A stretch of 64,000 nt of DNA from Betaproteobacteria bacterium (GCA_031362885.1 JANLTJ010000212.1:975-64974), one strand, 5' to 3'. Positions 23,329 to 48,679 are shown, numbered from the stretch's first letter. Translations and numbers: made by a program. The notes: generated by a model from the letters alone, not told the origin.

Positions 23329-23659
23329 CGTGATGTCCGTGGCAGAAGACGGCAGGCATTGTAGCGGAGACCGGTACTCGCCGCAGTTTGCCGCAAGCGG
23401 CGCATGCCTTGCGCCGAGGTCGTGGTCGCCGTGCACCTGCCGCCGGCTCGAATTGGTCTGACCGGTTCGAGCATTGCACTTCGAATTTTGCCTCTGCCTG
23501 GCACGGGTTCAGGATCCGGTACGCGCTTCCACGCATCCGTGCCCGGACCATCGGACCTGGCCCGTGCTGACTTTTTAAGCATGGCTAACCTTATGTGGCG
23601 TCTAACTTTTCTGGCACAATCAGGCTCCTGAACCGGATCCCGCCGCGCTTGCAAGCCAG

Positions 23660-25102
23660 ATGGACGCCAAAAAAACAACCAAACCCGATCTGCTGATCGT
23701 CGATGATGACCCGCTCATCATCGATACCTTGAGTTTTGTACTGGGCAAGGACTACAACGTACGAGCGGCGTCCTCCAGAACGCAAGTGAAGAGCCTGTTG
23801 CGCCAGCTTGATACCGCGCCGGAACTGGCATTGGTTGATCTGGGCCTGCCCCCGTCGCCTCATCGTCCTGATGAGGGATTTCAACTGATCACGGATCTGC
23901 TGGCGCACTCGGCGTCGATGAAGATTCTGGTTCTGTCGGGGCAAAGCGACGAATCCAATGCCCGCTATGCCCGCACTCTGGGCGCGGTGGAGTTCATCGC
24001 CAAGCCGTGCGAACCCGAAGTGCTCAAGTCGATGCTCGCCAAGGCCATGCGCATGGCGGCGGTGCAGGAGGAATCGGCCAAGGTCGATACCGGCATCATC
24101 GGCACTGGTCCTGCCATCAGCAAGCTGCATCAGCAGATCGCGCAATATGCGTCGGCCCCGTTTCCGGTTCTCATTGAAGGCGAATCGGGCAGCGGCAAGG
24201 AGTTGGTGGCCCGATCGTTGCACGAACAAGGCCCGCGGGCGGGAAAACCTTACCTTGCCCTCAACTGCGCCGCCATTTCGCCTACGCTCGTCGAACCCAC
24301 GCTGTTCGGCTACGTGAAGGGTGCGTTCACCGGGGCGACGTCCTCGCGTTCGGGTTACTTCGAGGATGCGCAGGAAGGCACGCTTTTTCTGGATGAAATC
24401 GGCGAATTGCCCCTGGAATTGCAGGCAAAATTGTTGCGCGTGCTGGAGAACGGGGAGTATCAGCGTGTTGGCGAAACACAGAGCCGAACCTCCAATGCGC
24501 GGGTTATTACCGCGACCAATCGCGATTTGCGGCAGGAAGTGCGCTCAGCGCGGTTTCGCCCGGATCTCTACCACCGGCTCTCGGTATTCTCGATTTCGGT
24601 GCCTGCGTTGCGCGAACTCGGCGATGACAAGCTGAAGTTGCTTGAGCACTACTGTGAGATTTACGCGCGCCAAAGTCAGGCCAAGCCGTTCAAGCTCGAT
24701 CACAAATCTCTTGAGTTATGGGCGCAGTATGGCTTTCCCGGAAACGTGCGCGAATTGCGCAACATCGTGATCAGACTGAGCACTAAGTTTCCCGGACAAA
24801 CCATCAACACCGACCAATTGATGGGCGAATTCGACTGGGAAGACCCGATGTCCGCCCCGTCCGATGCCGGCCAGACCAGGGACATCAAGACGTCGATGCA
24901 AACCGCCCGCAAGCACTTGCAAACACAGAAGGGATTCATGCTCGACGAGGCGCTGCGCGATCTTGAACGCAGCTACGTCGAGGCGGCCTTGGACATTACT
25001 CACGGCAACCTCAGCCAGGCGGCGAAACTGCTCGGCATCCATCGCACGACGCTGTACAGCCGCATGCAGAATTATGCGTCCGGCGCGCAAGAAGGCAACT
25101 GA
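23660..25102 (+). CDS. sigma-54-dependent response regulator (receiver + AAA+ EBP + Fis-type HTH), PrsR/AtoC-like
   Basis: Receiver LLIVDDDP...LVDLGLPPSPHRPDEGF...AKP. EBP core GESGSGKELVARSLH, GAFTGA loop (KGAFTGATSSRSG), TLFLDEIGELP. C-terminal HTH GNLSQAAKLLGIHRTTLYSRM. Confidence 0.9.
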   Translation: MDAKKTTKPDLLIVDDDPLIIDTLSFVLGKDYNVRAASSRTQVKSLLRQLDTAPELALVDLGLPPSPHRPDEGFQLITDLLAHSASMKILVLSGQSDESNARYARTLGAVEFIAKPCEPEVLKSMLAKAMRMAAVQEESAKVDTGIIGTGPAISKLHQQIAQYASAPFPVLIEGESGSGKELVARSLHEQGPRAGKPYLALNCAAISPTLVEPTLFGYVKGAFTGATSSRSGYFEDAQEGTLFLDEIGELPLELQAKLLRVLENGEYQRVGETQSRTSNARVITATNRDLRQEVRSARFRPDLYHRLSVFSISVPALRELGDDKLKLLEHYCEIYARQSQAKPFKLDHKSLELWAQYGFPGNVRELRNIVIRLSTKFPGQTINTDQLMGEFDWEDPMSAPSDAGQTRDIKTSMQTARKHLQTQKGFMLDEALRDLERSYVEAALDITHGNLSQAAKLLGIHRTTLYSRMQNYASGAQEGN

Positions 25103-26631
25103 TGTACTACAAGTATTTCGGTCTTGCCCGCGCGCCCTTCAAGATCACGCCCGATACGGACGTGTTCTTCGAGGGCGGCAATCGCGGCGCAATACTGGAA
25201 GCCCTGATTTACGCGATTTCAAACGGCGAAGGCATCATCAAAGTGACGGGCGAGGTCGGCAGCGGCAAAACCATGCTCTGCCGCGTGCTGCAAACTCGCC
25301 TGCCGCCCAATGTGGAGACGGTCTATCTGGCGAATCCAAGCGTGTCGCCGGAGGAAATACTGCATGCCATCGCCTTTGAATTGCGGCTGCCGGTGCCCAA
25401 GGACGCGGGTCGCCTGGAAGTCATGCATGCGCTCAACGAATATCTGGTCGAGCGTCATGGCCAGCAGCGCCAGGTTGTCGTCTTCGTGGAAGAATCCCAG
25501 GGCATGCCGATTTCCACACTGGAAGAAATCCGGCTGCTTTCCAATCTCGAAACCAAACAGCATAAATTGCTGCAGATCGTTCTGTTTGGCCAACCCGAGC
25601 TCGACGACAACCTGCGACAGCAAAACATCCGGCAACTTCGCGAACGCATTACGCATAGTTTCAGCCTGGCGCCCCTGGACGCGGAGGACGTCAAGGCGTA
25701 CCTGACCTTTCGCTTGCGCGCAGCCGGATATCACGGCCCTGATTTGTTTAGCCGCAGAGTAATCGCTTATATGGCCAAAGCCTGCGGCGGCTTGACGCGA
25801 CGCCTGAATCTGGTCGCCGACAAGGCGCTCCTGGCGGCGTTTGCCCAGGGGACTTATAACGTGACCTTGCAGCACGTCAAATCCGCGGTTCGCGACAGCG
25901 AATTCAGCCGGGTGGAACCGCCGCGTCGAAACGCCTCGCCTGTTCGCTACGCTGTTGGGGGACTGGCGATTGGCGGCGCGCTTGGAATCGCGGTCCTTGT
26001 CGCCTATCAGGCGCTTATGGCGGAAGACCCGGCGACTTTGGAAACAGTGCCGCCGCCCTCCGCTCAGCAGCCGCTTGCCGCACCCCAAACAGCGCCAATA
26101 GCAGTCACGCCCGACCTGCCGGAACCCCCCGTGGCGAGAGCATCTCCCGAGCCGCCGAGCGAACCACTGCCTCCGGTTGCGCTCGCGCGCAGGGTCGAGT
26201 CGGCGGTTGTCCATCGCCCGGCGCAAGGCCTGTCTTCGTCCACGGTTGCGACTTCCGCACCCGGGCCGGGTGAGCCTTCGCAGGCCGGTGAGAACGTCGA
26301 TCTGCTGGAACAGCGCATGCAGGCGACGGAAAAGTGGTTGCTCGAACAAAATGACGGCGCCTACAGCTTGCAATTGCTTGGTTCCAACGAACACGATCTT
26401 CTTCGGGAGTATTTGAAGACGATCGCCAAATTTGTTGAAATCGAAAAGGTTTATGTGTACCGTACCAGTGCGAACGGACGCCCTTCCCTGACGGTGCTGT
26501 ACGGGACTTTCGGGACCCGTAATGGGGTGGCACAAGCACTGCAAGGTCTGCCGGAAGCGTTGAAAGTAAACCGTCCTTATTACCGGACTATTCAGGGCAT
26601 CCGCTCTGAGATTGCCCGTCAAAGATCGTAA
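25102..26631 (+). CDS. ExeA/GspA/MshM-like AAA ATPase fused through a TM and Pro-rich linker to a SPOR-like domain
   Basis: N-terminus YFGLARAPFKITPDTDVFF...VTGEVGSGKT (Walker A) and VVFVEESQ. TM at aa 283-305, Pro/Ala linker aa 306-395. C-terminus YSLQLLGS...LTVLYGTFGTRNGVAQAL resembles SPOR. ATG shares one nt with the upstream TGA (TGATG). Confidence 0.8.
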   Translation: MYYKYFGLARAPFKITPDTDVFFEGGNRGAILEALIYAISNGEGIIKVTGEVGSGKTMLCRVLQTRLPPNVETVYLANPSVSPEEILHAIAFELRLPVPKDAGRLEVMHALNEYLVERHGQQRQVVVFVEESQGMPISTLEEIRLLSNLETKQHKLLQIVLFGQPELDDNLRQQNIRQLRERITHSFSLAPLDAEDVKAYLTFRLRAAGYHGPDLFSRRVIAYMAKACGGLTRRLNLVADKALLAAFAQGTYNVTLQHVKSAVRDSEFSRVEPPRRNASPVRYAVGGLAIGGALGIAVLVAYQALMAEDPATLETVPPPSAQQPLAAPQTAPIAVTPDLPEPPVARASPEPPSEPLPPVALARRVESAVVHRPAQGLSSSTVATSAPGPGEPSQAGENVDLLEQRMQATEKWLLEQNDGAYSLQLLGSNEHDLLREYLKTIAKFVEIEKVYVYRTSANGRPSLTVLYGTFGTRNGVAQALQGLPEALKVNRPYYRTIQGIRSEIARQRS

Positions 26632-26716
26632 TGGATAGCAACTGGACGCCCGACAATGCGGCATAACCAAACAAGTTGCGTCCCGGAATGTAGAGAACGT
26701 TTTCACGGGTTCGAAA

Positions 26717-28627
26717 ATGACCAATGAACAGGGAGGAAACGAGCCACGTAGCAGGGCGGCATCACGATCCGTGACGCGGGCTTCGGCGTGGGGTCGTCTA
26801 CTGACGACGGCTCGTGTGGTGTCCGCCGCCTGCCTGCTCGCGCTTGCCGCTGGCGGGTGCGCTGCCGTCAGGCCCAAAGTTCCGCCATCGCAAGGACACC
26901 TCGACTCCGGCCGCGTAGCCGCGAAAGCAACGGAAGAAAAGATCCCGGCGCCGGTTACCAGCAACAACTTCGTCCCTGCGCCCAAGCCCCAGGTCAAAGT
27001 CCCCACTTACAGCGTTGTGGTCAACGAAGTGCCGGTCAAGGAGTTGCTGTTCGCGCTTTCGCGCGACACCGGGCAGAACATTGACGTGCACCCGGACGTA
27101 AGCGGCTTTGTGACCCTAAACGCGATAGACCAGACACTGCCTTCGATACTCGATCGCATTTCAAGGCAAGTGAACATTCGATATACCACCGGCGAAAATT
27201 CCATTTACGTAATGGCAGATAGCCCTTTTCTGAGAAGCTATCGCGTTAATCACGTAAACGTCCAGAGAGATACCGCGAGCTCAATAGGTGTCAGCGGTGA
27301 CATTGGAGGCGGTTCATCCAGTAGCTCCGGTGGGTCACAGACGTCGGGAAGCAATTCCGCAACCATCGTCACCGCAACTTCAAAGAATAATTTCTGGGAG
27401 ATATTGCGCGACAACATGAGAAGCATTTTGACCTCGGCACGGACAGCGGAACTTCCGAAAGCAGAGCGAGAATTAGAGCGGAGCGCGATCGTTGACCAAA
27501 TAAGGCTCGATGAACGGCGCGCGGCGCTTTTAGCGGACGCCAGTCGCAACAACAATCAGCAGCTTGCGACAGGAGTTGCACTTGCCACACTGGGGGGGCC
27601 AGGCCTAACGGCCAACGCAGCCAACATCTCCCGTGCTATCACGTCGGCTGAGATCGGAAATGACGTTATCGTCAATCCCTTGGCGGGTACCGTTACGGTC
27701 ATGGCGCCTGAACGGCTGCACAAGCTTGTTCAGGAGTATCTCGACAATGTGAATAATGCGTCGCAGCGGCAAGTGCTGATCGAAGCCACTATCGTCGAAG
27801 TCCGGCTTTCCAACAATTATCAGGGTGGCGTGGACTGGAGCCGGATAGCTTCCGGGACCGGATTCACTTTCAATCAACAGTTGCTCGGCACCAGCCTCGG
27901 CACCGCCCCAAGGATGATTGTGGGGTATACCAATCTGACTTCGACTGTCGGCAATATCGCTGCGTCGCTACGGTTATTGGAGCAATTCGGCAATACTAGG
28001 GTGCTGTCGAGCCCGAAGTTGATGGCTCTGAATAACCAGACGGCACTGCTTAAAGTCGTGGACAATATCGTTTATTTTGAAGTCAAGTCGGATACCACCC
28101 CAGCGACTCTGGCGAGCGCCGCGATAACCACCTTCACGACAACTGCGAAGACGATTCCGGTAGGGCTGATCATGAGCGTGTTGCCTCAGGTGACCGACAC
28201 CGGAACAGTCAACCTCACGGTACGACCGACGATTTCGAGCGTAACCCGCTTTGTTCCCGACCCCAATCCGTCATTGCAAGTGGATGGCCAAGGCAATCAG
28301 CTCGCCAATCCAGTTCCAAATCTGATTCCACAGATCCAGATTCGGGAAATGGAATCCGTGCTTCAGGCCGGCAGCGGCCAGACCATCATACTGGGCGGGT
28401 TGATGCAAGATGACGTACAGCGCAACCGCGACGCCGTGCCCGGCCTGGGCAAGTTACCCTCTCCGATTGGTGACGCCTTCAGTTTCCGTGACGAAAGAGT
28501 GCGCAAGACCGAGCTGGTAATCTTTCTCAAGCCGACCGTAATCAGCAATCCCTCGCTGGATAGCGACGAGCTCAAGTTTTTCCGCCGTTTCCTGCCCACG
28601 ATCGACCCGAGCGGCAAGACACCATGA
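26717..28627 (+). CDS. secretin (GspD/PilQ superfamily, MshL-like), probable lipoprotein
   Basis: Candidate lipobox LALAAGG-C (Cys48). N-domain KELLFALSRDTGQNIDV. C-terminal secretin core VLSSPKLMALNNQTALLKV...DAVPGLGKLPSPIGDAFSFRDERVRKTELVIFLKPTVI. Confidence 0.9.
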   Translation: MTNEQGGNEPRSRAASRSVTRASAWGRLLTTARVVSAACLLALAAGGCAAVRPKVPPSQGHLDSGRVAAKATEEKIPAPVTSNNFVPAPKPQVKVPTYSVVVNEVPVKELLFALSRDTGQNIDVHPDVSGFVTLNAIDQTLPSILDRISRQVNIRYTTGENSIYVMADSPFLRSYRVNHVNVQRDTASSIGVSGDIGGGSSSSSGGSQTSGSNSATIVTATSKNNFWEILRDNMRSILTSARTAELPKAERELERSAIVDQIRLDERRAALLADASRNNNQQLATGVALATLGGPGLTANAANISRAITSAEIGNDVIVNPLAGTVTVMAPERLHKLVQEYLDNVNNASQRQVLIEATIVEVRLSNNYQGGVDWSRIASGTGFTFNQQLLGTSLGTAPRMIVGYTNLTSTVGNIAASLRLLEQFGNTRVLSSPKLMALNNQTALLKVVDNIVYFEVKSDTTPATLASAAITTFTTTAKTIPVGLIMSVLPQVTDTGTVNLTVRPTISSVTRFVPDPNPSLQVDGQGNQLANPVPNLIPQIQIREMESVLQAGSGQTIILGGLMQDDVQRNRDAVPGLGKLPSPIGDAFSFRDERVRKTELVIFLKPTVISNPSLDSDELKFFRRFLPTIDPSGKTP

Positions 28628-29937
28628 GCTTGTTGCTCGAAGCCCTGCAGAAGGCCTCGAAGAACCGCGACGAAGCAAAGGCTGGGACCACGGGCGATAT
28701 CATGGCGATGGCGGAGGAACTGGCGCTGGAGCCGACAATGTCCGCGCCCGACGCCCTGCCGGATTCGGCAGGCTCGCCGACTGCCGCCCAGGCGGCAACC
28801 TTGTTGCAGGCCCGAAGCGTACCGGGATTCAACGTCCTGGATTACGCACGCGAGCACTACATGATCAGTTTTCTTGGGTTCGCAATTCTTTTTGCCCTTG
28901 GGTACGGAACCTATGTTTACGTGCAGGTGGCCCAGCCGTTTCGCAGTCCCACGCCCGCATTGGCTCCCTTGGTGGCCGCGCCGCAAAGCGCAGCCATAGC
29001 CAGCGCGCCGCCGCCGGACAGCGCAAAAATAACTGGATTACCTGGTGGCATGACGTCGTCGGACGGCAGCGCCGGGGCGGGCGCCATGGCCGCCACCGCC
29101 AATGCTGCGGATGCATCCGGGCAACCGGCCCCGCCTGCGTCCGCTCCGGTCTTCGACGAACCGATGGCCATGCCTGCGGCCAGAAAAAAAACATCCGCCA
29201 AACCGGCCTCGGCCCCGAGGGCGAAGGCCGCGTCTCGCAGCACGTCGAATTCCGCGCCGCTCACCGATGCGGGCGATAGAGTAGAAACAATCGTGATACC
29301 GACATCACGGCCGGAGCCCGGCGGTGTCGAAGTGCGGAAGGACGCGACAAGGCAAACGCAAGTTACTCCGGTACTGATGCAAGCTTATGAAACTCTTCAG
29401 CGCGGAGAAAACGCGAAAGCCAGAGAACTGTACGAACAATTCCTGCAGCGCGAACCGCGCAGTATTGATGCCTTGCTCGGGCTCGGCGCCATCGCGCTGG
29501 GTGAAGGCCGGCTGGACGATGCCAGCGGCTATTACCAGCGGATCCTGGCGCTGGATCCTCGCAATTCCTATGCGCAGGCCGGCTTGATTTCTATTGTTGG
29601 TGGCGCGGATCGTCCGGCCAGTGAATCCCGGCTCAAACAACTCATTGCCCGCGATCCATCGGCGTTCCTGAATTATTCCCTTGGCAATCTGTATGCCGAA
29701 CAGGGGCAGTGGCCTTCCGCGCAGCAAGCCTATTTCCAGGCCTTTCAGATGCAACAGGACAATCCGGACTACGCATTCAATCTGGCTGTCGGACTGGATC
29801 ACCTCGGCCAGGACCAGCTTGCGCTCGACTACTACCGCAAGGCGCTGGATCTGTCTTTCAAGAAAGGCCACGCCAATTTCGATCAAACTCTCGTCATCCA
29901 GCGCGTCGGCCAGCTTTCCGCTCGCGTAGAGCAGTGA
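28624..29937 (+). CDS. bitopic TPR-repeat pilus biogenesis protein (MshN-like, GspB-like N-terminus)
   Basis: N-terminus MSLLLEALQKASK. One TM (ISFLGFAILFALGYGTYVYV), an Ala/Pro/Ser-rich linker, then C-terminal TPRs (AKARELYEQFLQREPRSIDALLGLG...YYQRILALDPRNSYA...YYRKALDL). ATGA overlap with the secretin stop. Confidence 0.7.
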   Translation: MSLLLEALQKASKNRDEAKAGTTGDIMAMAEELALEPTMSAPDALPDSAGSPTAAQAATLLQARSVPGFNVLDYAREHYMISFLGFAILFALGYGTYVYVQVAQPFRSPTPALAPLVAAPQSAAIASAPPPDSAKITGLPGGMTSSDGSAGAGAMAATANAADASGQPAPPASAPVFDEPMAMPAARKKTSAKPASAPRAKAASRSTSNSAPLTDAGDRVETIVIPTSRPEPGGVEVRKDATRQTQVTPVLMQAYETLQRGENAKARELYEQFLQREPRSIDALLGLGAIALGEGRLDDASGYYQRILALDPRNSYAQAGLISIVGGADRPASESRLKQLIARDPSAFLNYSLGNLYAEQGQWPSAQQAYFQAFQMQQDNPDYAFNLAVGLDHLGQDQLALDYYRKALDLSFKKGHANFDQTLVIQRVGQLSARVEQ

Positions 29938-29947
29938 GTTAGCGTCA

Positions 29948-31651: not shown

Positions 31652-31731
31652 CACCTCGACGCGAGCGTCGCGCGACATTCACGGCAAAATCGGTTTGAAT
31701 CCAGACAGACCCTTTCACAGACGAGCAGCCA

Positions 31732-32937: not shown

Positions 32938-32944
32938 GGCATTG

Positions 32945-34477: not shown

Positions 34478-35089
34478 ATGAATCTGTCCCGGAAAGATTT
34501 CCAGTCAATCAAGACGCCGCTGATGGCACTGGCGCTCGCGGTCGCCGCTTCGCTGACAATGCTGGCAATTACAGACCGCAAGCTTGCGAGCTCCGAGATG
34601 AATTACCGGAATCAGTTGACCGCGCTCACGGAAGCGCGCACCCGCTACCAGCGCTCCGGAGAAGAGCACGAATCCATTCTGCGTTACCTGGAAAGTTATC
34701 GTGCCTTGGAAAAAATCGGCTTCGTCGGCACCGAACAGCGACTGAACTGGGTGGAAAGTTTGCGCATGGCCAACAAAAACGCAGGCTTGTTCGGAGTGGA
34801 CTACCAGTTGACCGCCCAGGAGCCTTTCCCGTTCGCCGTCAGTGACAATCCGATCGCGAATCAAGTCAAGCATTCGCGCATGACCATCACCTTCGGCGTG
34901 CTGCACGAAGGCGAACTCGCGCGTTTGTTTCTTGCCCTGTCGGCGCAGCAGCCCGGGCTGTTTTCGCTGAATGGTTGCTCGATTGATCGCGCGGGCAGGC
35001 AAGGCGACCCGCTGCCCAGGCAGGCCAATCTCACGGCCCGGTGCGAACTCTCCTGGCTGACACTGGAACCCGGTGGCGGCAAATCATGA
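34478..35089 (+). CDS. PilO/MshJ-like bitopic pilus alignment protein, tentative
   Basis: 203 aa. N-terminal TM (LMALALAVAASLTMLAI), a coiled-coil, then an alpha/beta C-domain. ATG directly abuts the upstream TAG; AGGAG lies 11 nt upstream. Confidence 0.45.
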   Translation: MNLSRKDFQSIKTPLMALALAVAASLTMLAITDRKLASSEMNYRNQLTALTEARTRYQRSGEEHESILRYLESYRALEKIGFVGTEQRLNWVESLRMANKNAGLFGVDYQLTAQEPFPFAVSDNPIANQVKHSRMTITFGVLHEGELARLFLALSAQQPGLFSLNGCSIDRAGRQGDPLPRQANLTARCELSWLTLEPGGGKS

Positions 35090-35607
35090 GGAAAACACTC
35101 CAAACCGCCGCTTTGATCGCCAGCGTCGTGCTGCCATTGCAGAGTCTTGCCGGCGAGCCATTCGGCCGGCTGTTCTTCACCCCCGCACAACGCAGCGCAC
35201 TCGATGCCGGCAAACAGGTCCGCACGCAGAAGGCTTCTCCTGCCCCGGAAGCGCGCAGTCCCCGGGAAATTACGCTAAGCGGCGTGGTCACGCGCAGTGA
35301 CGGAGATTCCACCGTTTGGATAAACGGCATAGCCCTCGACAAGCGCAGTTCCGGGGTGAGCGCCCGCACCACGGGCTCCGATCCGGCGGCCGCAGAGGTA
35401 AGGCTGGCGGGTGCTCGCAACAGTGTGCGCATGCGCGTTGGGCAACACCTGGAATCTTCCAGCGGAAGGATTGCTGAACGCTATTCGCAGACCGCGCAGG
35501 CAAGGAAAAAAGTCGATCCGAATCTCACCGCCAAGGAAGCGAATGCCGAAGGCAAGCCCCCACCCGCAACTGCGGACGCCGTGCGCGCTTCAGCTCCGGA
35601 AAACTAA
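35086..35607 (+). CDS. secreted PilP/MshK-like small beta-domain protein, tentative
   Basis: Signal peptide MRKTLQTAALIASVVLPLQSLAG. Core ITLSGVVTRSDGDSTVWINGIAL resembles the PilP/MshK/GspC-HR pattern. ATGA overlap with the upstream stop. The track ORF starts earlier, at 35041. Confidence 0.4.
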   Translation: MRKTLQTAALIASVVLPLQSLAGEPFGRLFFTPAQRSALDAGKQVRTQKASPAPEARSPREITLSGVVTRSDGDSTVWINGIALDKRSSGVSARTTGSDPAAAEVRLAGARNSVRMRVGQHLESSSGRIAERYSQTAQARKKVDPNLTAKEANAEGKPPPATADAVRASAPEN

Positions 35608-35628
35608 GGCTTTGCCGCACATCGCCTC

Positions 35629-37122
35629 GTGACCAAGTCCAATCTTCAATTCATTTCTTTTGAGAAGCAATCCGGTGCCGCTTTGCTCATTCTGCTGGCG
35701 CTGATCGCGATTGCAACCGGTGCTTTCCTGGTCAACACGTTTGGGGCTTCCGCCCAGCAGGAAGATCGTGACCGCCGGACAGAAGCTGCTCTGGCGCAGG
35801 CTAAGGAAGCGCTCATTTATTATGCGGCTTCTTACGCCGATACCGACCCGGGAAACGTCCCCGGCTACCTCCCTTGCCCCGACGACGGCAGCAACAGCGA
35901 AGGCACCCAGGCCACAGCCACCTGTGCCGCACGGGACGTTTCGGCTCTGGGCAGATTGCCATGGAAAACTTTGGGGCTTCCTGCCCTCAGGGATGGCAGC
36001 CAGGAATGTCTGTGGTACGCCGTGTCAGGCAACTACAAATCGAACGTCAACAAGACCTACCTGATGAACTGGGACACCAACGGCCTGATTACAGTGCGCG
36101 GACCCGGGGGCGACGTGGTCGCATTGGGGAATACGCCCTCAGGTGCCGTAGGAGTCATATTTGCCCCCGGCCTCGCGATCGCCGGACAGACTCGCGCGGA
36201 CGCTGCTCCTTCAATCTGCGGTGGCAACTCTACCGCAGCCAACTATCTGGATTCCTTCGGCGGCTTCAACAATGCTGTTCTGGCCGGGGGCGCCAACGTC
36301 ATCAGCACCGTCACCGCGGCCGCTGCAGTGCCTGGCGCATTCAATGATCGCCTGATCTTCATTACCGCCAAGGATATTTTCGATGCCATCGAGCGCCGTC
36401 TGCATGCTGATCCGACCGTTACTCCGACCACCCCTCCTACGCTCGTAAGTTTTTCCACGCTGCTCGGCAATGTCGTCAGGCGTAGCGCCGAATGTATTGC
36501 CGGCTATCCTGCGAGGAATAACCGTTACGCGTCCGATGATGATCGGCGGCTGCCGTGGACTACAGATCATCCTTTGACCGGGGGAAATTACGGCTCTGAC
36601 GACAACTACCTCGATCGGAACAATCGCTATTTCGGCCGCACCCCCCGGGATGTCGGTACTGCGAGCAATTCACGATCAAAAGATCTTACTAACAACAGTA
36701 ATTCAGGCAACTATTTGCTTTCTACAGCCAATTGTCCAGCGGGGTGGGGTGCAGTGCAGCCTTGGTGGCAAAACTGGAAGGATCATATTTTTTATGCCGT
36801 CTCCGAGGATTTCGCACCGAACGGCGCCTCAACTAATACCAATTGTGGTGCTTGTGTCCGCGTGATTGCCCCTGGTCCTGACCCTGAGTATGCCGGCATC
36901 GTCTTCTTCGCCGGTAAACGCCTGGCAGCACAGGACCGCCGCAACAACTTTAGTTCTTCGAACAGCACGGCAAAAGGCCAAATCGGTAACTACCTTGAGA
37001 GCGAAAATGCCACCGCCAGCACCAATGGCATGGGAATTTATCGCACCGGCGCGGAATCCAGCGTTTTCAATGATGTGCTCTATTGCATAAACGAGAACCT
37101 CACGGTGATCCAGTGCCCCTAA
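35629..37122 (+). CDS. large pilin-like protein with non-canonical PilX_N/GspK-like N-terminal helix (no Glu5), Cys-rich
   Basis: GTG start. N-terminus EKQSGAALLILLALIAIATGAFLV resembles the PilX N-terminal segment. It shares an LPCP...C...G.LP..LGL...YAVS module with the next gene. 497 aa. Confidence 0.45.
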   Translation: MTKSNLQFISFEKQSGAALLILLALIAIATGAFLVNTFGASAQQEDRDRRTEAALAQAKEALIYYAASYADTDPGNVPGYLPCPDDGSNSEGTQATATCAARDVSALGRLPWKTLGLPALRDGSQECLWYAVSGNYKSNVNKTYLMNWDTNGLITVRGPGGDVVALGNTPSGAVGVIFAPGLAIAGQTRADAAPSICGGNSTAANYLDSFGGFNNAVLAGGANVISTVTAAAAVPGAFNDRLIFITAKDIFDAIERRLHADPTVTPTTPPTLVSFSTLLGNVVRRSAECIAGYPARNNRYASDDDRRLPWTTDHPLTGGNYGSDDNYLDRNNRYFGRTPRDVGTASNSRSKDLTNNSNSGNYLLSTANCPAGWGAVQPWWQNWKDHIFYAVSEDFAPNGASTNTNCGACVRVIAPGPDPEYAGIVFFAGKRLAAQDRRNNFSSSNSTAKGQIGNYLESENATASTNGMGIYRTGAESSVFNDVLYCINENLTVIQCP

Positions 37123-38003
37123 GTAACAAGGCCCGTTATTCCATCCGGCGCTCACCCCGCTCTGCTCACAGGGTCAAGGCCCGGCTCCACGGTTTTTCCT
37201 TGGTCGAGGTAGCCATCGCCCTCGTCATCTTTGCGCTATTGGTCGGAGGTCTTCTGGTTCCATTGTCCGCGCAAGTCGAGCAACGACGCATTCTGACGAC
37301 GCAGCAACAACTGGAGGAAATCAAGGCGGCACTAATGGGCTATGCCGCCGCCAACGGCCGGTTGCCGTGCCCTTCATCGGGGTTGAATAATGGTTTGGAA
37401 AGTTTCGCGGGCGGAGGCAACGCGACAAACGGCAATTGCTCAAACTTCTTCAACGGCTTTCTGCCAGCGGTAACTTTGGGGTTGACACCGATCAATGGGC
37501 AGGGTTATGCGCTTGACGCCTGGGCCTTGCCTCAGAGCCGAATTCGCTATGCTGTTTCAAGCCGCCCCCTCCCATTGGCCGCCAACCCTGTTGTGAGCAC
37601 CGACTGCGCAGTGACTCCGGCGTTGTGCCAGTCCAATCCATTCACTGCTGCCAGCGGAATGAAGAACGTCGGAATTGGCAATGTGGCAAGTAACGAGCCG
37701 AACGCGAGCTTGATTCTTGTCTGCTCGAGCAGCGCCGGGATCGGCGCGAACTGCGGAATCGCGGCTGGTCCGCCGCCTACGCTGACCCTGAACAGCAAGG
37801 CCGTGTTCGTCGTTTTTTCAGAAGCGGGCAACCCGGGATTGGGGGGCGCTGGAGCCGATGAGCAAGCCAATCTCGACAATGACCCTATATTTGTAAGCCA
37901 CCCCAGGACAGCAACTGCCGGCAACCCATTCGACGATCTGGTGACCTGGATCGGCCCCAGCCTGCTGCTCAATCGGATGATCGAAGCCGGCCAGCTTCCC
38001 TGA
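37113..38003 (+). CDS. prepilin-type N-terminal cleavage/methylation domain protein (minor pilin-like)
   Basis: Class III signal ...ARLHG/FSLVEVAIALVIFALLVGGLLVPL with Glu5. The track ORF starts at TTG 37083. GTG 37113 would give a 25-aa leader. Start uncertain. Confidence 0.75.
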   Translation: MPLSNKARYSIRRSPRSAHRVKARLHGFSLVEVAIALVIFALLVGGLLVPLSAQVEQRRILTTQQQLEEIKAALMGYAAANGRLPCPSSGLNNGLESFAGGGNATNGNCSNFFNGFLPAVTLGLTPINGQGYALDAWALPQSRIRYAVSSRPLPLAANPVVSTDCAVTPALCQSNPFTAASGMKNVGIGNVASNEPNASLILVCSSSAGIGANCGIAAGPPPTLTLNSKAVFVVFSEAGNPGLGGAGADEQANLDNDPIFVSHPRTATAGNPFDDLVTWIGPSLLLNRMIEAGQLP

Positions 38004-38021
38004 AGCGCCCTGACTGGCTGC

Positions 38022-38057
38022 TTAGTTTTTCGCGCCCGCTCAGTTTTTCGCGCCGAA
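38022..38057. repeat. imperfect 18-nt tandem duplication spanning the histidine kinase stop codon
   Basis: TTAGTTTTTCGCGCCCGC (38022-38039) followed by TCAGTTTTTCGCGCCGAA (38040-38057), 14/18 identical. On the minus strand these read ...FGAKN-TGA then AGAKN-TAA. Confidence 0.8.
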
Positions 38058-39758
38058 TGGCGCGAGCGATAAACAGACCTTTCCTGGCAGGTTGCTGGAA
38101 ACCGCAGCTTCATAGCCCTGTTCTTTCGCGAACTTCGCCACTTGATACAGCCCGACTCCCAGCCCGGACTTTGACGAGACTGCCGTCGAGAACAGTTGCC
38201 CGGCAATCGTGTCGGGAATCGGTGTTCCGTCATCGCACACCGACAGCACGAAGCCTCCTTCCCACTGCAAACTGGCGCGGATGCGCAGGCCGGTTTGCAT
38301 TTTTCGTTTCTCAAGCGCGTTCTGCAAAAAGTTTTCCGCGGCGGACTCGAACAAGTCCCCGGGCAGCACCGCATCCGCGGGCAGGCTCACGGCATCAAAT
38401 TCGATATGCTCATGGGAATAGCGTTCGCGCAGGCCCTGCCACCACTGCGCGCCGGCGGCCTGGTCTTGTCCGACAGAGGGCTTGGTATTGAGCTTGTCGA
38501 GCGTAATCTGCAAGCGCTGGGTAATCTGCGGCAGTTGCCGCTTCATCAGCAGGCGGACGGCTTCCGAATCGCTCTCATCGCTGGTTTCCGCTGCGGCGCA
38601 AAGCGAGCGCAGCGTTTGCAGCAGGTTTTTCACGTCATGCGTGAGCCTTGATCCGGTTTCATGAATGGCCTGGATATACGCGTTCCGACGCTGCTCCTGC
38701 TCGCGTATCTTGGCCTCGTAATAATCGCCCAGTAATCGCGCCAGCAGGCGGATATGCAATACCAGCGCCGGACTCGCGGACCAGCGGGTGTAGAGCTTCA
38801 GTGTCAATCCGCCAAACGCGAATTCGGTGGGGTACTTGGTGATTTCTCCGGCTTTTCCGGTGGCGCTTTTCGATTGCCAGCTCACGCCCGACAACCAGGG
38901 CAATCCGGCCATCTCATGGGCTGCAACAATGACGAACTTGTCCGGATCGCGCTCGCGTTCCGCCAGAGACGCCAAGCTGTGCATCCACAGCTCGAAGGGC
39001 ACGCCGATGCTCAGGAAATAACGCGTGATGACCTGTCCAATGCCGGAGAAGCCGCCGCGTGGATCCCAGATCAGTGACAGCGCCACCAGCAAGCTGGCAA
39101 TGACGATCAAGGTCTGCGCCAGCGCGAGAATATAGTTGCCATGGCTGACCTGGTAGATTACGAAGGCGCCCAGCACCAGGACCACGACCATCAGGAACAG
39201 CAACAGGCTGTAGAACAAATCGACGGTATAGCTCGTCGCGCCTTGCGCCTTTTCGGTGCGAATGAAGAAGATCAGCGTTGCCGGAACGATGAGTCCGTAA
39301 CGAATCACCGCTTCCAGCGCTTGCGGCATTGCCCATGCCGCAAACAGGTGTGGGACTACCCAAGCCAGCAGAATCGACATCAGATACAGGGCGGCGAGCA
39401 GCGACACAGCGCGCTCGCGCAGATTCTTCATTCCCGGCACATGGCCGCCGACAATGGAAAGCAGTACCGCCGTCCAGAGCGCCATCAGCCACCAACTTGC
39501 CGCCGCGATCGCAAATACGGCGGCACTGACGATCAGGGCGACCTGACTCGGAATCAGCCTCCTTTCTCCGTGCCAGAGCGGTTGCCACAGCAGAAAGAAC
39601 CCAAAATGTGCCAGCAACAGGGCGCGCGCCATCGGGTCGGCCAGGCCCATCATCAACGCGCCATGCAGGGCCAGCAGGGCCAGCGACAGCCAGTGCTGCT
39701 GACGCAGCCGGGCGATCCATTGCTGCAGGCGCGATTCTCTCTGGACGATGGCGTTCAT
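38040..39758 (-). CDS. polytopic sensor histidine kinase (PilS/PrsK-like architecture)
   Basis: About 7-8 N-terminal TM helices. H-box SRLTHDVKNLLQTL, N-box ENFLQNALEKR, G boxes VCDDGTPI and SGLGVGLY. The track ORF extends to 39959, but that extension is Cys/Arg-rich. ATG 39758 (MNAIVQRE) preferred. Start uncertain. Confidence 0.85.
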   Translation of the reverse strand: MNAIVQRESRLQQWIARLRQQHWLSLALLALHGALMMGLADPMARALLLAHFGFFLLWQPLWHGERRLIPSQVALIVSAAVFAIAAASWWLMALWTAVLLSIVGGHVPGMKNLRERAVSLLAALYLMSILLAWVVPHLFAAWAMPQALEAVIRYGLIVPATLIFFIRTEKAQGATSYTVDLFYSLLLFLMVVVLVLGAFVIYQVSHGNYILALAQTLIVIASLLVALSLIWDPRGGFSGIGQVITRYFLSIGVPFELWMHSLASLAERERDPDKFVIVAAHEMAGLPWLSGVSWQSKSATGKAGEITKYPTEFAFGGLTLKLYTRWSASPALVLHIRLLARLLGDYYEAKIREQEQRRNAYIQAIHETGSRLTHDVKNLLQTLRSLCAAAETSDESDSEAVRLLMKRQLPQITQRLQITLDKLNTKPSVGQDQAAGAQWWQGLRERYSHEHIEFDAVSLPADAVLPGDLFESAAENFLQNALEKRKMQTGLRIRASLQWEGGFVLSVCDDGTPIPDTIAGQLFSTAVSSKSGLGVGLYQVAKFAKEQGYEAAVSSNLPGKVCLSLAPFGAKN

Positions 39759-40130
39759 GGGTGCGGTTCCAAGACAGCAGTCTACGCTATGCGAAACGGT
39801 GCGCGAGTCCATCCAGACCCTGACCGCAGACCTTGCCTTGGCCGATAGCCGGGACTTGCCGAGGGCAAGGTCGACCAGCGCAATTGGCAATAAATTGTCG
39901 AAAAATCGTCGACATTGTCGAGAATATGACCGAATAAACCAGCCGTATCTTGGATGCATGGCGACTGGCGTTCAAGTTTGTTGTAGGTCTCGATCGGCAT
40001 TAATTTCAGACTAAAGGACCCTAACGTGGGGTAGTTCTTGCCCTACAGGTGGGAAATCCCAGCGATTCAAGCCTTCAGGGGATCAATGCCGCATTTCAAA
40101 ATTCTGCGGTCGACATCTTCGCCAGCAAAC

Positions 40131-40146
40131 TGGCACGCTTCTAGCG
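40131..40146 (+). promoter_or_regulatory. candidate sigma-54 (-24/-12) promoter for the pilin gene
   Basis: TGGCACG-CTTC-TAGCG versus consensus TGGCACG-N4-TTGCW. The GG (40132-33) to GC (40144-45) spacing is exactly canonical. It lies 62 nt upstream of ATG 40208. Confidence 0.65.
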
Positions 40147-40207
40147 TCCCCCGAGTGCAAACCGATCATTCTGGTGTCGGCACTCTATCACTGAACCTAC
40201 ATAAATC

Positions 40208-40906
40208 ATGAGTAAAAGCATCGCAAGACCGCGCGGACAAGCCGGCTTCACACTGATTGAAATCGCCATAGTTCTGGTCATTATCGGTCTGTTGCTCGGC
40301 GGCGTGCTCAAGGGGCAGGAACTGATCAACAATGCCCGGGTCAAGAGCTACGCCAACGATTTCCGCAATATTCCGGTGTATATCTACGGCTATCAGGACC
40401 GCTTCCGCGCGCTGCCAGGGGACGATGCCGCGGTCGCGACGCGTATACCTGGCGCTACGCTTGCGACAACTCCGGCAGGCACGGTTGGCAATGGCGTAAT
40501 TAACGGCGCTTGGAACTCTGTTACCGGCACGGATGAGACTTGCTTGTTCTGGCAGCATGTGCGCCTGGCAAACTTGGCAACCGGATCGTCTACCGTAAAC
40601 TGTGCCGTCCTCACTGGCGGCTATTATCCCCAGAACGCCAATGGCGGCAACATCGGCATTCAAAGTACTGTCGGTTTCACCACCATCACTCTTCCGACCG
40701 TGATGACCGCCACCTACATCATTTGCTCAGCAAACATTCTCGGACAGTTCGTGTTGCAACTCGATCAGACGATGGACGATGGAAACCCGGAAACCGGTTC
40801 GATGCGGGCGATTCGACAGTCGGCGCTTGCCGCAGCGACTGCGGCAACAACTCTGGTCGTTCAAGCCAACCCGGGCGACAGCTTTACCGTCTGCATGGGC
40901 GTTTAA
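40208..40906 (+). CDS. type IV pilin / pseudopilin-like major subunit candidate (MshA-like), 232 aa
   Basis: Leader MSKSIARPRGQAG/FTLIEIAIVLVIIGLLLGGVL (G-1, F+1, E+5). Four Cys, including a C-terminal pair (IICSAN...FTVCMGV). Monocistronic, with a terminator right after it. Confidence 0.85.
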   Translation: MSKSIARPRGQAGFTLIEIAIVLVIIGLLLGGVLKGQELINNARVKSYANDFRNIPVYIYGYQDRFRALPGDDAAVATRIPGATLATTPAGTVGNGVINGAWNSVTGTDETCLFWQHVRLANLATGSSTVNCAVLTGGYYPQNANGGNIGIQSTVGFTTITLPTVMTATYIICSANILGQFVLQLDQTMDDGNPETGSMRAIRQSALAAATAATTLVVQANPGDSFTVCMGV

Positions 40907-40925
40907 GAAGTCTTTATGTCCTCGG

Positions 40926-40953
40926 AAAAAGCCCGCTTCATGCGGGCTTTTTC
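40926..40953 (+). terminator. rho-independent terminator after the pilin gene
   Basis: AAAAA-GCCCGC-TTCAT-GCGGGC-TTTTTC, 20 nt after the stop. The A/T arms make it look bidirectional. Confidence 0.75.
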
Positions 40954-47796: not shown

Positions 47797-47815
47797 CAAC
47801 GGCACATCGACACGC

Positions 47816-48655: not shown

Positions 48656-48679
48656 GTCTGCGTTAACAGGCGCCGTGCA

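What the first reader, a model, noticed from the sequence alone, without database searches (positions are those of the whole stretch)
23437..40953. A 17.5-kb MSH/T2SS-like type IV filament locus sits exactly in the mlaF <> kdsD divergent junction
Seen: everything left of 23436 is murA-ibaG-(ABC-2 pair)-mlaBCDEF on the minus strand. Everything right of 41043 is kdsD-kdsC-lptC-lptA-lptB-rpoN-hpf-ptsN-hprK-rapZ on the plus strand. Established: in E. coli K-12 these two envelope blocks face each other directly, with only yrbG between mlaF and kdsD. Here the junction holds 13 genes: regulator, ExeA-like ATPase, secretin, TPR protein, MshE-like ATPase, platform protein, PilM/N-, PilO- and PilP-like proteins, two pilin-like proteins, a kinase and a pilin. 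I saw no integrase, transposase, tRNA or flanking direct repeat at either border. Base composition looks like the flanks by eye, so this is not an obviously recent island. Inference: a lineage-specific filament or secretion system is embedded in the core OM-lipid/LPS-transport locus and placed a few kb from rpoN, the sigma factor it appears to need. Component order (M-L-N-E-G, then I-J-K-like, then pilins) differs from the Vibrio MSHA order I remember (I-J-K-L-M-N-E-G).
Basis: partly seen in the sequence, partly recalled or inferred. Interest (0 to 1): 0.7.

Follow-up and report, generated by a model that had tools for sequence, protein, structure and literature searches.

The report
MSHA-like pilus gene cluster, old resident
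This is a complete gene set for a surface pilus of the known MSHA type. It has sat between two cell-envelope operons for a long time in a whole group of soil Betaproteobacteria, so it is a real but fairly ordinary feature.

Summary
Thirteen genes (23660-40906) lie between mlaF (minus strand) and kdsD (plus strand). They encode a sigma-54 response regulator, an ExeA/MshM-like ATPase, an MshL-like secretin and a TPR protein. They also encode an MshE-type ATPase with an intact c-di-GMP motif, a platform protein, a PilM-PilN fusion and two small partner proteins. The rest are two paralogous pilin-like proteins, a 6-TM histidine kinase and a prepilin.

There is no tRNA, integrase or border repeat, and codon usage matches the flanks.

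The block is not peculiar to this genome:
- All 16 related contigs with enough sequence upstream of kdsD carry it there.
- More distant relatives keep the same mlaF junction and the same gene order.
- Cultured Ferrigenium has the same order, and Emerson et al. 2013 already noted rearranged MSH clusters in Gallionellaceae.

Sigma-54 dependence is supported only for the pilin gene. That gene has a conserved -24/-12 element and an upstream palindrome. Closeness to rpoN comes with the kdsD-lptB-rpoN operon.

The least-known parts are the two pilin-like proteins g10 and g11. They belong to a large family (about 4,000 clusters at 50% identity) with no Pfam model, and the confident g10 model has no PDB fold match.

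Verdict: a new member of a known kind, of modest interest.

The parts
23660..25102 (+). g01: NtrC/PilR-type response regulator and sigma-54 enhancer-binding protein (REC, AAA+ with GAFTGA at residues 221-226, HTH_8)
   Evidence: Pfam gives Sigma54_activat 4e-65, Response_reg and HTH_8. The GAFTGA motif was found. The gene overlaps the g02 start (ATGA), so the two are co-transcribed.
25102..26631 (+). g02: ExeA/MshM-like AAA+ ATPase with one TM segment (residues 283-301) and a periplasmic C-terminal domain weakly like the DamX/SPOR region
   Evidence: Pfam AAA_22 at 1.8e-26. TIGR03015 at 211.8 bits, below its cut-off of 324.5, and DamX at 4.8e-5 over residues 352-502. TM segment.
26717..28627 (+). 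g03: outer-membrane secretin, closest to the MshL type; a lipobox is possible (AAGGC)
   Evidence: Pfam Secretin 7e-34 and Secretin_N_2. NCBIfam MshL TIGR02519 scores 235.7 bits (cut-off 250.2), against GspD 134 and PilQ 88.
28624..29937 (+). g04: membrane-anchored TPR protein (MshN/TadD-like secretin assembly factor)
   Evidence: Several TPR families match residues 250-420. TM segment at 80-98. Its position between the secretin and the ATPase is kept in relatives.
29948..31651 (+). g05: MshE-type assembly ATPase with an N-terminal c-di-GMP-binding MshEN domain
   Evidence: Pfam T2SSE 1.9e-122 and MshEN 1.1e-15. NF053729 c-di-GMP motif at 59.4 bits, above its cut-off of 38. Motif RLGELLVQQGLITLDQLRIALTEQ at residues 9-32, a second copy at 39-58, Walker A at 323, and CxxC...CxxC at 456.
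31732..32937 (+). g06: inner-membrane platform protein (GspF/PilC/MshG family)
   Evidence: Pfam T2SSF with two repeats, 1.1e-49. GspF TIGR02120 at 314 bits, below its cut-off of 424.
32942..34477 (+). g07: fusion of a PilM-like cytoplasmic actin-fold domain, a long TM helix and a periplasmic alpha-beta-beta domain (MshI/GspL-like architecture)
   Evidence: No Pfam or NCBIfam hit apart from a faint GspL_C at 0.0065. AF2 model has pLDDT 71. The top Foldseek hit is P. aeruginosa PilM:PilN 5eou at E 1.2e-7; cyto-EpsL 1w97 also matches.
34478..35089 (+). g08: bitopic inner-membrane protein, inferred PilO/GspM/MshJ counterpart
   Evidence: N-terminal TM at 11-29. Faint GspM at 0.0054. No PDB sequence match. 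The assignment rests on position and topology only.
35041..35607 (+). g09: small secreted protein, inferred PilP/MshK/GspC-HR counterpart (probable start 35086)
   Evidence: The sequence shows a signal peptide. No family hit. Position is conserved in all relatives.
35629..37122 (+). g10: large pilin-like protein without Glu5. It has a 57-residue N-terminal helix and a Cys-rich globular head, and its N-terminal half is paralogous to g11. It is the presumed tip or priming subunit.
   Evidence: No Pfam, NCBIfam or PDB sequence hit. AF2 model has pLDDT 82.6 and pTM 0.83, with a helix at residues 16-72. No Foldseek PDB match. hhalign against g11 gives probability 99.2% and E 1e-19. The family has 3969 clusters at 50% identity.
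37083..38003 (+). g11: minor pilin with a class III signal (G|FSLVE; the Gly codon starts at 37191) and a conserved NGRLPCP motif
   Evidence: Pfam N_methyl 6.6e-6. Motif scan. Alignment of 14 orthologues.
38040..39959 (-). g12: sensor histidine kinase with about 6 TM segments and no large periplasmic domain (PilS-like topology). H-box THDVKN at residue 440. The true start is probably near 39758.
   Evidence: Pfam HATPase_c. TM scan. H-box. Relatives align over about 570 residues.
39897..39930 (+). Conserved upstream block GTCGAAAAATCGTCGAC...TGTCGAGAATATGAC, containing the palindrome GACGA-N4-TCGTC. It is the candidate enhancer (binding site for g01), about 235 nt upstream of the -24/-12 element.
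   Evidence: It is the only block besides the promoter with invariant columns in the alignment of 9 pilin upstream regions. The window has one exact match to GWCGAAWANTCGWC, at this site.
40131..40146 (+). Sigma-54 type -24/-12 promoter TGGCACGCTTCTAGCG, 62 nt upstream of the pilin start codon
   Evidence: Found. The same element sits 50-90 nt upstream of the first pilin gene in 14 of 20 related loci under a strict pattern, and in 5 more under a relaxed first base. It is absent in L022, where no kinase gene lies between g11 and the pilin.
40208..40906 (+). g13: prepilin and presumed major subunit (leader MSKSIARPRGQAG|FTLIE, 232 aa)
   Evidence: Pfam N_methyl 1e-7. TIGR02532. Motif scan. Identity to relatives is only 35-82%, and some relatives have two copies.

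Best explanation
The block encodes an MSHA-class type IV pilus machine that has been inherited vertically at this chromosomal position.

**Shown by domain, motif or fold evidence**
- g05 is the assembly ATPase. It carries an intact tandem c-di-GMP-binding MshEN motif.
- g06 is the inner-membrane platform.
- g07 is a PilM-PilN (GspL/MshI-like) fusion.
- g03 is an MshL-like secretin.
- g02 is an ExeA/MshM-like ATPase with a periplasmic domain, and g04 is a TPR protein.
- g13 and g11 carry prepilin signals. g10 is a Glu5-less paralogue of g11 with an extra C-terminal domain.
- g01 is a sigma-54 activator and g12 is a multi-TM histidine kinase.
- The pilin gene has a conserved -24/-12 element and a conserved palindrome about 235 nt upstream of it.

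**Inferred working model**
1. The kinase g12 phosphorylates g01.
2. g01 binds the palindrome and opens the sigma-54 promoter of the pilin gene. This parallels PilS-PilR control of pilA in Pseudomonas.
3. A prepilin peptidase encoded elsewhere cleaves g13, g11 and probably g10. The locus has no peptidase gene, as is usual for MSH loci.
4. g10 and g11 prime the filament and stay at its tip.
5. g05 bound to c-di-GMP drives polymerisation of g13 on g06.
6. The g07-g08-g09 complex links the platform to the secretin.
7. g02 and g04 help assemble the secretin through the peptidoglycan.

The likely role is surface attachment and biofilm initiation when c-di-GMP is high.

The position between mla and kdsD is an old insertion, or an ancestral arrangement, shared by a clade of uncultured soil Burkholderiales-like Betaproteobacteria. 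Nothing found here links that position to how the machine works.
For: - Domain and family assignments.
- MshE motifs, GAFTGA and H-box.
- The secretin scores about 100 bits higher on the MshL model than on GspD, and about 150 bits higher than on PilQ.
- g07 fold matches PilM:PilN.
- g10 has a pilin-like N-terminal helix and is paralogous to g11.
- The promoter and upstream block are conserved across diverged relatives.
- The -24/-12 element is absent in L022, where no kinase gene lies between g11 and the pilin.
- The block has the same position and order in relatives.
- The core order is the same in Ferrigenium and other long contigs, again next to mlaF in one of them.
- Composition is native.
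- Identity falls steeply from machinery to filament parts, as expected for surface-exposed subunits. In L012, MshE is 88% and MshG 86% identical, but g10 is 34%, g11 40% and the pilin 52%.
- V. cholerae MshE binds c-di-GMP through its N-terminal domain and is needed for pilus assembly: PMC4624765.
- MSH loci are single loci that lack a prepilin peptidase, and mshA, E, G, L and M are the mandatory genes: PMC6668835.
Against: - No experiment exists for any member of this subgroup.
- The secretin, ATPase and platform all score below the NCBIfam equivalog cut-offs for MshL, GspE, PilB and GspF.
- The ATPase is about equally similar to PilB and GspE structures.
- g08 and g09 are assigned only by position and topology.
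- Only three pilin-like genes are present, against seven structural genes in V. cholerae (mshB-Q).
- No homologue of the GspI/J/K-type tip trimer was recognised.
- No retraction ATPase is encoded in the locus.
- The kinase-regulator-promoter link is inferred from co-occurrence and was not measured.
Confidence: 0.75

Rival explanations
1. The block is a T2SS-like secretion machine. g13, g11 and g10 form a short periplasmic pseudopilus that pushes folded proteins through the secretin, and no surface pilus is made.
For: - g07 has a faint GspL_C hit and g08 a faint GspM hit.
- cyto-EpsL is among the fold matches of g07.
- The N-termini of g11 and g13 match GspG and GspH weakly.
- No retraction ATPase is in the locus.
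- An ExeA-like ATPase is known from the Aeromonas T2SS (own knowledge).
- MSH and T2SS are sister groups (PMC6668835).
Against: - The secretin scores 235.7 bits on MshL and 134 on GspD, and lacks a full GspD N-domain match.
- The ATPase has the MshE-type c-di-GMP motif.
- No GspC, I, J or K was recognised.
- The presumed major subunit is large (232 aa), varies strongly between close relatives and is duplicated in some. This is typical of exposed pilins, not of GspG.
- The GspL_C, GspM, GspG and GspH hits are all far below their cut-offs.
Confidence: 0.12
2. The block is a horizontally acquired genomic island that landed recently in the mlaF-kdsD junction.
For: - E. coli has only yrbG between mlaF and kdsD, so extra genes at this junction look like an insertion.
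- Type IV filament loci encoded as single loci are often transferred (PMC6668835).
Against: - No tRNA, integrase or border repeats.
- Codon usage correlates with the flanks at r = 0.96.
- The block is present at the same place in all 16 informative relatives, down to 66% KdsD identity.
- The mlaF junction is kept at about 60% g02 identity and in a long contig with the reduced core (L092).
Confidence: 0.03
3. The position has a functional meaning. The filament machine is co-regulated or physically coupled with Mla lipid transport and Lpt LPS transport, which would explain the conserved adjacency to mlaF.
For: - Adjacency to mlaF holds in the window clade and in a distant long contig whose right flank is different (L092).
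- In Ferrigenium an ABC ATPase gene sits on the left in the same orientation.
Against: - The genes are divergently transcribed from mlaF.
- No shared regulatory element was found in the 223-bp spacer.
- Other copies of the same cluster have unrelated left flanks (L069 and L070; L091).
- The right flank varies: kdsD, or a Kef-type antiporter, or cysS.
- Slow rearrangement of a core region explains the adjacency equally well.
Confidence: 0.05
4. The pilus serves DNA uptake (competence) or twitching motility rather than adhesion.
For: Type IV filaments of the T4aP/MSH/T2SS branch include DNA-uptake and motility machines (PMC6668835).
Against: - No PilT/PilU, ComEA or ComEC gene lies in or next to the block.
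- c-di-GMP-activated MshE is tied to attachment in V. cholerae (PMC4624765).
Confidence: 0.05

Closest known systems
Vibrio cholerae MSHA pilus locus (mshIJKLMNEGF + mshBACDOPQ)
   Same: - A single locus of similar size: 17.2 kb here and 16.7 kb in V. cholerae (PMC4624765).
- An MshE-type ATPase with a c-di-GMP-binding N-domain.
- An MshL-like secretin next to an ExeA/MshM-like ATPase and a TPR protein.
- A GspF-family platform and a PilM-PilN-type fusion protein.
- No prepilin peptidase and no retraction ATPase in the locus.
   Different: - The gene order is M-L-N-E-G, then I-J-K-like, then pilins.
- There are three pilin-like genes instead of seven structural genes.
- No counterpart of MshQ, MshF or the MshD/O/P (GspI/J/K-type) tip set was recognised.
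- g10 and g11 belong to a family that no model describes.
- g07-g09 are not recognised by sequence models.
- g02 has an added TM segment and periplasmic domain.
- The cluster includes a sigma-54 two-component pair.
MSH-homologous clusters of Gallionellaceae (Sideroxydans ES-1, Gallionella ES-2; Ferrigenium kumadai AP019536.1)
   Same: The core order is the same: MshM-like, secretin, TPR, MshE, platform, g07, g08, g09, g10, g11. An ABC ATPase gene lies on the left. The literature describes these as MSH clusters with a significant rearrangement and unknown function (PMC3770913; also PMC10734482).
   Different: - Ferrigenium has no regulator or kinase and no g13-type pilin in the locus.
- Its right flank is DUF1615/cysS, not kdsD.
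- Some relatives also lack the MshM-like and TPR genes.
PilS-PilR-RpoN control of pilA in Pseudomonas aeruginosa
   Same: A multi-TM kinase without a large periplasmic domain, an NtrC-family activator, and a -24/-12 promoter with an upstream enhancer in front of the major pilin gene.
   Different: - Homology of g12 to PilS was not tested, because no reference sequence was available.
- Here the two regulator genes sit at opposite ends of the machinery operon.
- The -12 element reads TCTnGC rather than TTGC.
Type II secretion system (Gsp/Eps/Exe)
   Same: It is the sister class of MSH. It shares a GspE-like ATPase, a GspF-like platform, a GspL-like fusion architecture, and an ExeA-like accessory ATPase with a periplasmic wall-binding domain.
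   Different: - The secretin is not GspD-like.
- No GspC, I, J or K is present.
- The ATPase carries the MshE c-di-GMP motif.
- The pilin is large and variable.

Membership tests
MSH-class type IV filament (TFF-SF model of Denise et al. 2019: mandatory mshA, mshE, mshG, mshL, mshM) | MshE-type ATPase with an N-terminal MshEN c-di-GMP-binding domain | tested here: met
   PF05157 at 57.8 bits. NF053729 at 59.4 bits, above its cut-off of 38. Tandem motif at residues 9-32 and 39-58.
MSH-class type IV filament (TFF-SF model of Denise et al. 2019: mandatory mshA, mshE, mshG, mshL, mshM) | MshL-type secretin | tested here: inconclusive
   TIGR02519 is the best model by about 100 bits, but its 235.7 bits fall below the cut-off of 250.2.
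MSH-class type IV filament (TFF-SF model of Denise et al. 2019: mandatory mshA, mshE, mshG, mshL, mshM) | MshM (ExeA-like AAA ATPase) encoded in the locus | tested here: met
   AAA_22 at 1.8e-26 over residues 42-170, in a gene adjacent to the secretin. This is a family-level match only, because no MshM-specific model was available.
MSH-class type IV filament (TFF-SF model of Denise et al. 2019: mandatory mshA, mshE, mshG, mshL, mshM) | MshG platform and an MshA-type pilin | tested here: met
   T2SSF with two repeats. g13 has a class III signal G|FTLIE. Both are family-level matches only.
MSH-class type IV filament (TFF-SF model of Denise et al. 2019: mandatory mshA, mshE, mshG, mshL, mshM) | A single locus without a prepilin peptidase | tested here: met
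   All 13 genes are contiguous and none has a peptidase A24 domain.
MSH-class type IV filament (TFF-SF model of Denise et al. 2019: mandatory mshA, mshE, mshG, mshL, mshM) | Scores as MSH with the actual MacSyFinder profiles, and falls in the MSH clade of ATPase and secretin trees | not testable with these tools
   MacSyFinder models and reference sequences of the filament classes were not available. PDB comparison cannot decide: PilB scores 394 bits and GspE 364 bits.
Canonical Vibrio-type MSHA locus | Accessory structural set MshB, C, D, O, P, Q and MshF | tested here: not met
   Only g10, g11 and g13 are pilin-like. g10 and g11 match no described family. No protein of about 1200 aa like MshQ is present.
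Canonical Vibrio-type MSHA locus | Operon order mshI-J-K-L-M-N-E-G-F followed by mshB-Q | tested here: not met
   The order here is M, L, N, E, G, then I-, J-, K-like genes, g10, g11, the kinase, and the pilin. The Vibrio order is taken from PMC4624765.
Type II secretion system | GspD secretin, GspC, and the pseudopilin set GspG-K | tested here: not met
   GspD TIGR02517 scores 134 bits against a cut-off of 351. GspG and GspH match only the N-terminal methylation region. No GspC, I, J or K hit was found.
Type IVa pilus (Pil) | PilQ secretin, separate PilM/N/O/P genes, PilB and PilT | tested here: not met
   PilQ TIGR02515 scores 88 bits against a cut-off of 284. PilB scores 501 against 676. 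No PilN, PilO or PilP model hit was found, and no PilT is in the locus.
Sigma-54-dependent gene with a two-component activator (PilS/PilR-like) | -24 GG and -12 GC at the correct spacing, an upstream activator site, an EBP with GAFTGA, and a cognate kinase | tested here: met
   Promoter at 40131-40146 and its conservation. Palindrome at 39897-39910. GAFTGA and H-box. Activity itself was not testable.
Genomic island | Integrase or tRNA at a border, flanking direct repeats, deviant composition, patchy presence in relatives | tested here: not met
   and presence in 16 of 16 informative relatives.

The most novel reading that the evidence does not exclude
g10 and g11 may define a separate, undescribed solution for priming a type IV filament. 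They form a two-paralogue 'LPCP' pilin module that replaces the GspI/J/K-type trimer. The Glu5-less member carries a 240-residue Cys-rich head of a fold not yet seen in the PDB. On this reading the betaproteobacterial clusters would be a distinct MSH subclass with its own tip biology, possibly an adhesin for mineral or root surfaces. It could be studied in culturable Gallionellaceae.
Probability: 0.25. Interest if true: 0.5.

Novelty: new member of a known kind. Interest (0 to 1): 0.3.

Why it matters
It shows that a very common group of soil Betaproteobacteria, and the iron-oxidising Gallionellaceae, carry a complete MSHA-type pilus machine that is probably gated by c-di-GMP. Public annotation labels its parts only generically: 'GspE/PulE family protein' or 'hypothetical protein'.

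The practical gains are three:
- Better annotation of five protein families that have no model (g07-g11).
- A defined regulatory unit that can be tested: kinase, activator, palindrome and -24/-12 promoter in front of the pilin gene.
- A pointer to a large uncharacterised family of pilin-like tip proteins.

The chromosomal position reflects slow rearrangement of a conserved envelope gene region. Nothing found here indicates a new mechanism.

Tried and rejected
- **Second sigma-54 site.** A sigma-54-like site at 26528-26543, inside the 3' end of g02 and upstream of the secretin gene, has one mismatch. It is absent at that position in the 14 other loci checked, so I treat it as chance. Window-wide, the relaxed sigma-54 pattern is no more frequent than in shuffles: 40 matches against 38 expected. 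Only position and conservation single out the pilin site.
- **No sigma-54 element** was found upstream of g01 or g02 in the window clade.
- **Sequence-profile searches** of g07, g08 and g10 against the PDB gave nothing. A member-by-member Pfam scan of g07 orthologues gave only faint GspL_C hits.
- **Foldseek on the g10 model** against the PDB gave no match. This could also reflect how Foldseek handles a long helix joined to a loop-rich domain.
- **Class assignment of the ATPase** from PDB or NCBIfam scores is not possible, because PilB and GspE score about equally.
- **Names in public databases** for g05, g07 and g10 homologues are generic or absent.
- **Border repeats** were all short matches of chance size.
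- **Marsh and Taylor 1999** is not in the library, so I took the Vibrio operon layout from PMC4624765.

Full report

Yes. ORF listing and Pfam/NCBIfam scans give 13 genes between 23660 and 40906:
- g01, a sigma-54 response regulator.
- g02, an ExeA/MshM-like AAA ATPase.
- g03, a secretin.
- g04, a TPR protein.
- g05, a T2SSE ATPase with an MshEN domain.
- g06, a T2SSF platform protein.
- g07, g08 and g09, three proteins with no family hit.
- g10 and g11, two pilin-like proteins.
- g12, a histidine kinase on the minus strand.
- g13, a prepilin.

The left flank on the minus strand is hisCDG, murA, ibaG, an ABC-2 pair and mlaBCDEF. The right flank on the plus strand is kdsD, kdsC, lptC, lptA, lptB, rpoN, hpf, ptsN, hprK and rapZ.

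There is no tRNA near the borders. There are no border repeats above chance size, and none of the 13 proteins has an integrase or transposase domain.

Composition matches the flanks:
- GC is 0.585 in the locus and 0.602 in the flanks.
- GC3 is 0.689 in the locus and 0.730 in the flanks.
- RSCU correlation is 0.96 between locus and flanks, against 0.975 between the two flanks.

**2. What the parts are**

*ATPase (g05).* It has the 24-residue MshEN motif RLGELLVQQGLITLDQLRIALTEQ at residues 9-32 and a second copy at 39-58. It also has a Walker A box and the tetracysteine motif. The NCBIfam 'MshE-related c-di-GMP motif' model scores above its cut-off.

*Secretin (g03).* It scores 235.7 bits on the MshL equivalog model, just under the cut-off of 250.2. 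It scores 134 on GspD and 88 on PilQ.

*Secretin helpers (g02, g04).*
- g02 has a cytoplasmic AAA_22 domain, one TM segment and a periplasmic C-terminal domain that weakly resembles the DamX/SPOR region. This is the topology of ExeA.
- g04 is a membrane-anchored TPR protein.

*Inner-membrane complex (g07-g09).*
- g07 has no sequence-level family. Its AF2 model (pLDDT 71) has an actin-like cytoplasmic domain. The best PDB match is P. aeruginosa PilM:PilN (E 1.2e-7), and cyto-EpsL also matches. A long TM helix and a periplasmic alpha-beta-beta domain follow. This is the MshI/GspL type of fusion.
- g08 is bitopic and g09 is a small secreted protein. Their PilO/GspM-like and PilP-like roles are inferred only from topology and conserved position.

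*Pilin-like proteins (g13, g11, g10).*
- g13 (G|FTLIE) and g11 (G|FSLVE) carry class III signals.
- g10 has a hydrophobic pilin-like N-terminus without Glu5.
- Its AF2 model is confident (pLDDT 82.6, pTM 0.83). It shows a 57-residue N-terminal helix and a large Cys-rich head with no PDB fold match and no PDB sequence match.
- Profile-profile comparison shows that residues 10-254 of g10 are homologous to the whole of g11 (probability 99.2%, E 1e-19). Both share an LPCP motif just after the helix.

**3. Regulation**

*Proteins.* g01 has REC, an AAA+ domain with GAFTGA, and HTH_8. g12 has about six TM segments, an H-box and HATPase_c.

*Promoter.* TGGCACGCTTCTAGCG lies 62 nt upstream of the pilin start, with GG and GC at the canonical spacing.
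- Relaxed sigma-54 matches are not enriched in the window as a whole: 40 were found against 38 expected.
- Yet this element sits 50-90 nt upstream of the first pilin gene in 14 of 20 related loci under a strict pattern.
- It appears in five more loci under a relaxed first base.
- It is one of only two blocks with invariant columns in an alignment of nine otherwise diverged upstream regions.

*Upstream block.* The second conserved block lies about 235 nt further upstream, at 39897-39930. It contains the palindrome GACGA-N4-TCGTC, which has one exact match in the window. It is a good candidate for the activator binding site.

*Co-occurrence.* In the Rhodocyclaceae MAG locus L022 no kinase gene lies between g11 and the pilin. 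There the pilin gene follows g11 directly and has no -24/-12 element.

*What was not found.*
- No conserved sigma-54 site precedes the machinery genes.
- The candidate at 26528 is not conserved.

So the sigma-54 link is supported for the pilin gene only. Closeness to rpoN is inherited with the kdsD-lptB-rpoN operon.

**4. Relatives and the junction**

*Right junction.* A KdsD-based scan of one genome per species gave 56 loci. tblastn with the window proteins gave these results:
- All 16 loci with KdsD identity of 66% or more and enough upstream sequence carry the kinase, the pilin genes and, where the contig reaches that far, g07-g11, MshG and MshE, in the same order next to kdsD.
- These loci are soil and groundwater MAGs labelled Betaproteobacteria or Burkholderiales, plus two Rhodocyclaceae MAGs.
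- Caballeronia, Advenella and Sutterellaceae lack the block. They also lack mlaF next to kdsD.

*Left junction.* A metagenome scan with g02 recovered contigs with hisG-murA-ABC2-mlaBCDEF on one strand. On the other strand they carry regulator, MshM-like, secretin, TPR, MshE, MshG, g07, g08, g09 and g10. g02 identity in these contigs is only about 60%.

*Long contigs.* Two contigs with MshE identity of about 90% show the whole arrangement from mla to the pilin.

*More distant copies.*
- L069 and L070 keep the gene order but have other left flanks.
- Ferrigenium kumadai (complete genome) has the same core order next to an ABC ATPase gene. It has no regulator, kinase or kdsD there.
- One 2.2-Mb contig has mlaCDEF next to a reduced core that lacks the MshM-like and TPR genes.

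The block is therefore old and vertically inherited. Its adjacency to mla reaches further back than its adjacency to kdsD.

**5. Known or new?**
- Denise et al. 2019 (PMC6668835) define MSH by mandatory mshA, E, G, L and M, a single locus, and no prepilin peptidase. All of these are met here at family level.
- Emerson et al. [quoted passage not shown]
- A 2023 study also lists MSHA clusters in Gallionellaceae MAGs (PMC10734482).
- The V. cholerae locus has mshI-F and mshB-Q operons, and its MshE binds c-di-GMP through the N-terminal domain (PMC4624765).

The window locus is thus a new member of a known, though uncharacterised, betaproteobacterial form of the MSH class.

It differs from the Vibrio prototype in four ways:
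- Gene order.
- A reduced and unrecognisable minor-pilin set. A recent analysis of tip complexes equates MshD/O/P with GspI/J/K and MshQ with PilY1 (PMC13533445), and none of these was detected here.
- The ExeA-like extension of g02.
- The attached sigma-54 two-component pair.

*Database status.* Public databases give the proteins only generic names or none. The g10 family is large:
- 3969 clusters at 50% identity with E up to 1e-3.
- 1580 clusters with E up to 1e-30.

**6. Mechanism and rivals**

The preferred reading (0.75) is a c-di-GMP-gated adhesive pilus whose pilin supply is set by a PilS/PilR-like sigma-54 circuit.

The steep drop in identity from machinery to filament parts fits surface exposure. 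In L012, MshE is 88% and MshG 86% identical, but g10 is 34%, g11 40% and the pilin 52%. Some relatives also have duplicated pilins.

| Rival reading | Confidence | Main reason it is less likely |
|---|---|---|
| T2SS-like secretion | 0.12 | Secretin type, MshE motif and pilin variability argue against it, though it cannot be excluded |
| DNA uptake or twitching motility | 0.05 | No PilT/PilU, ComEA or ComEC gene in or next to the block |
| Functional coupling to Mla/Lpt | 0.05 | Rests only on conserved adjacency |
| Recent genomic island | 0.03 | Effectively refuted by conservation and composition |

**7. Verdict**

The feature is a new member of a known kind, with interest 0.3. The most novel reading still open is that g10 and g11 form a distinct tip-priming module with a new fold (probability about 0.25).

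Noticed in passing
L095:3035-3790 and 19522-21033; L058:7727-8413; L009:4403-5947: In many relatives an ABC ATPase gene lies between mlaF and the regulator gene. Two ABC-2-like permease genes lie between the kinase and the pilin gene. Parts of one transporter therefore sit at both ends of the pilus block. The window has none of these genes.
   Followed up: partly
L009:6209-9982; also L007, L014, L005, L016, L031, L045: The stretch between the kinase and kdsD is variable. Some relatives carry two diverged pilin copies (35-40% identical to g13). In L009 a Kef-type Na+/H+ exchanger gene with TrkA domains lies on the minus strand directly upstream of kdsD.
   Followed up: partly
L040:18324-20602: In this relative the kinase and pilin are next to kdsD. 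The g10 and g11 homologues lie downstream of rpoN on the opposite strand, so the block is split there.
   Followed up: no
L091 and L092 (two long contigs of one sample): These are reduced versions of the cluster without the MshM-like and TPR genes and without a g13-type pilin. A small cytochrome c gene follows the g11 homologue. L092 is next to mlaCDEF and L091 is not.
   Followed up: no
L094:17207-17866: A close relative (MshE 90% identical, 1.04-Mb contig) has an extra 219-aa gene between the g10 and g11 homologues. It could be a third tip subunit that the window lacks.
   Followed up: no
window 54680-57298 (+): An 872-aa ORF encodes a long Ala/Glu/Arg/Gln-rich coiled-coil protein with a C-terminal TM segment and no Pfam hit. 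It coincides with the highest GC (0.65-0.67) and a strong AT skew (+0.33) in the window.
   Followed up: partly
window 47756-49381 (-): A 541-aa ORF with no family hit is an antisense shadow of rapZ (47816-48655) and a flavoprotein gene (48680-49318) on the plus strand.
   Followed up: yes
window 26155-26610 (g02 residues 352-502): The periplasmic C-terminal part of the ExeA/MshM-like ATPase weakly matches the DamX region that contains the SPOR domain (E 4.8e-5). This suggests a peptidoglycan-binding module different from the one known in Aeromonas ExeA.
   Followed up: no
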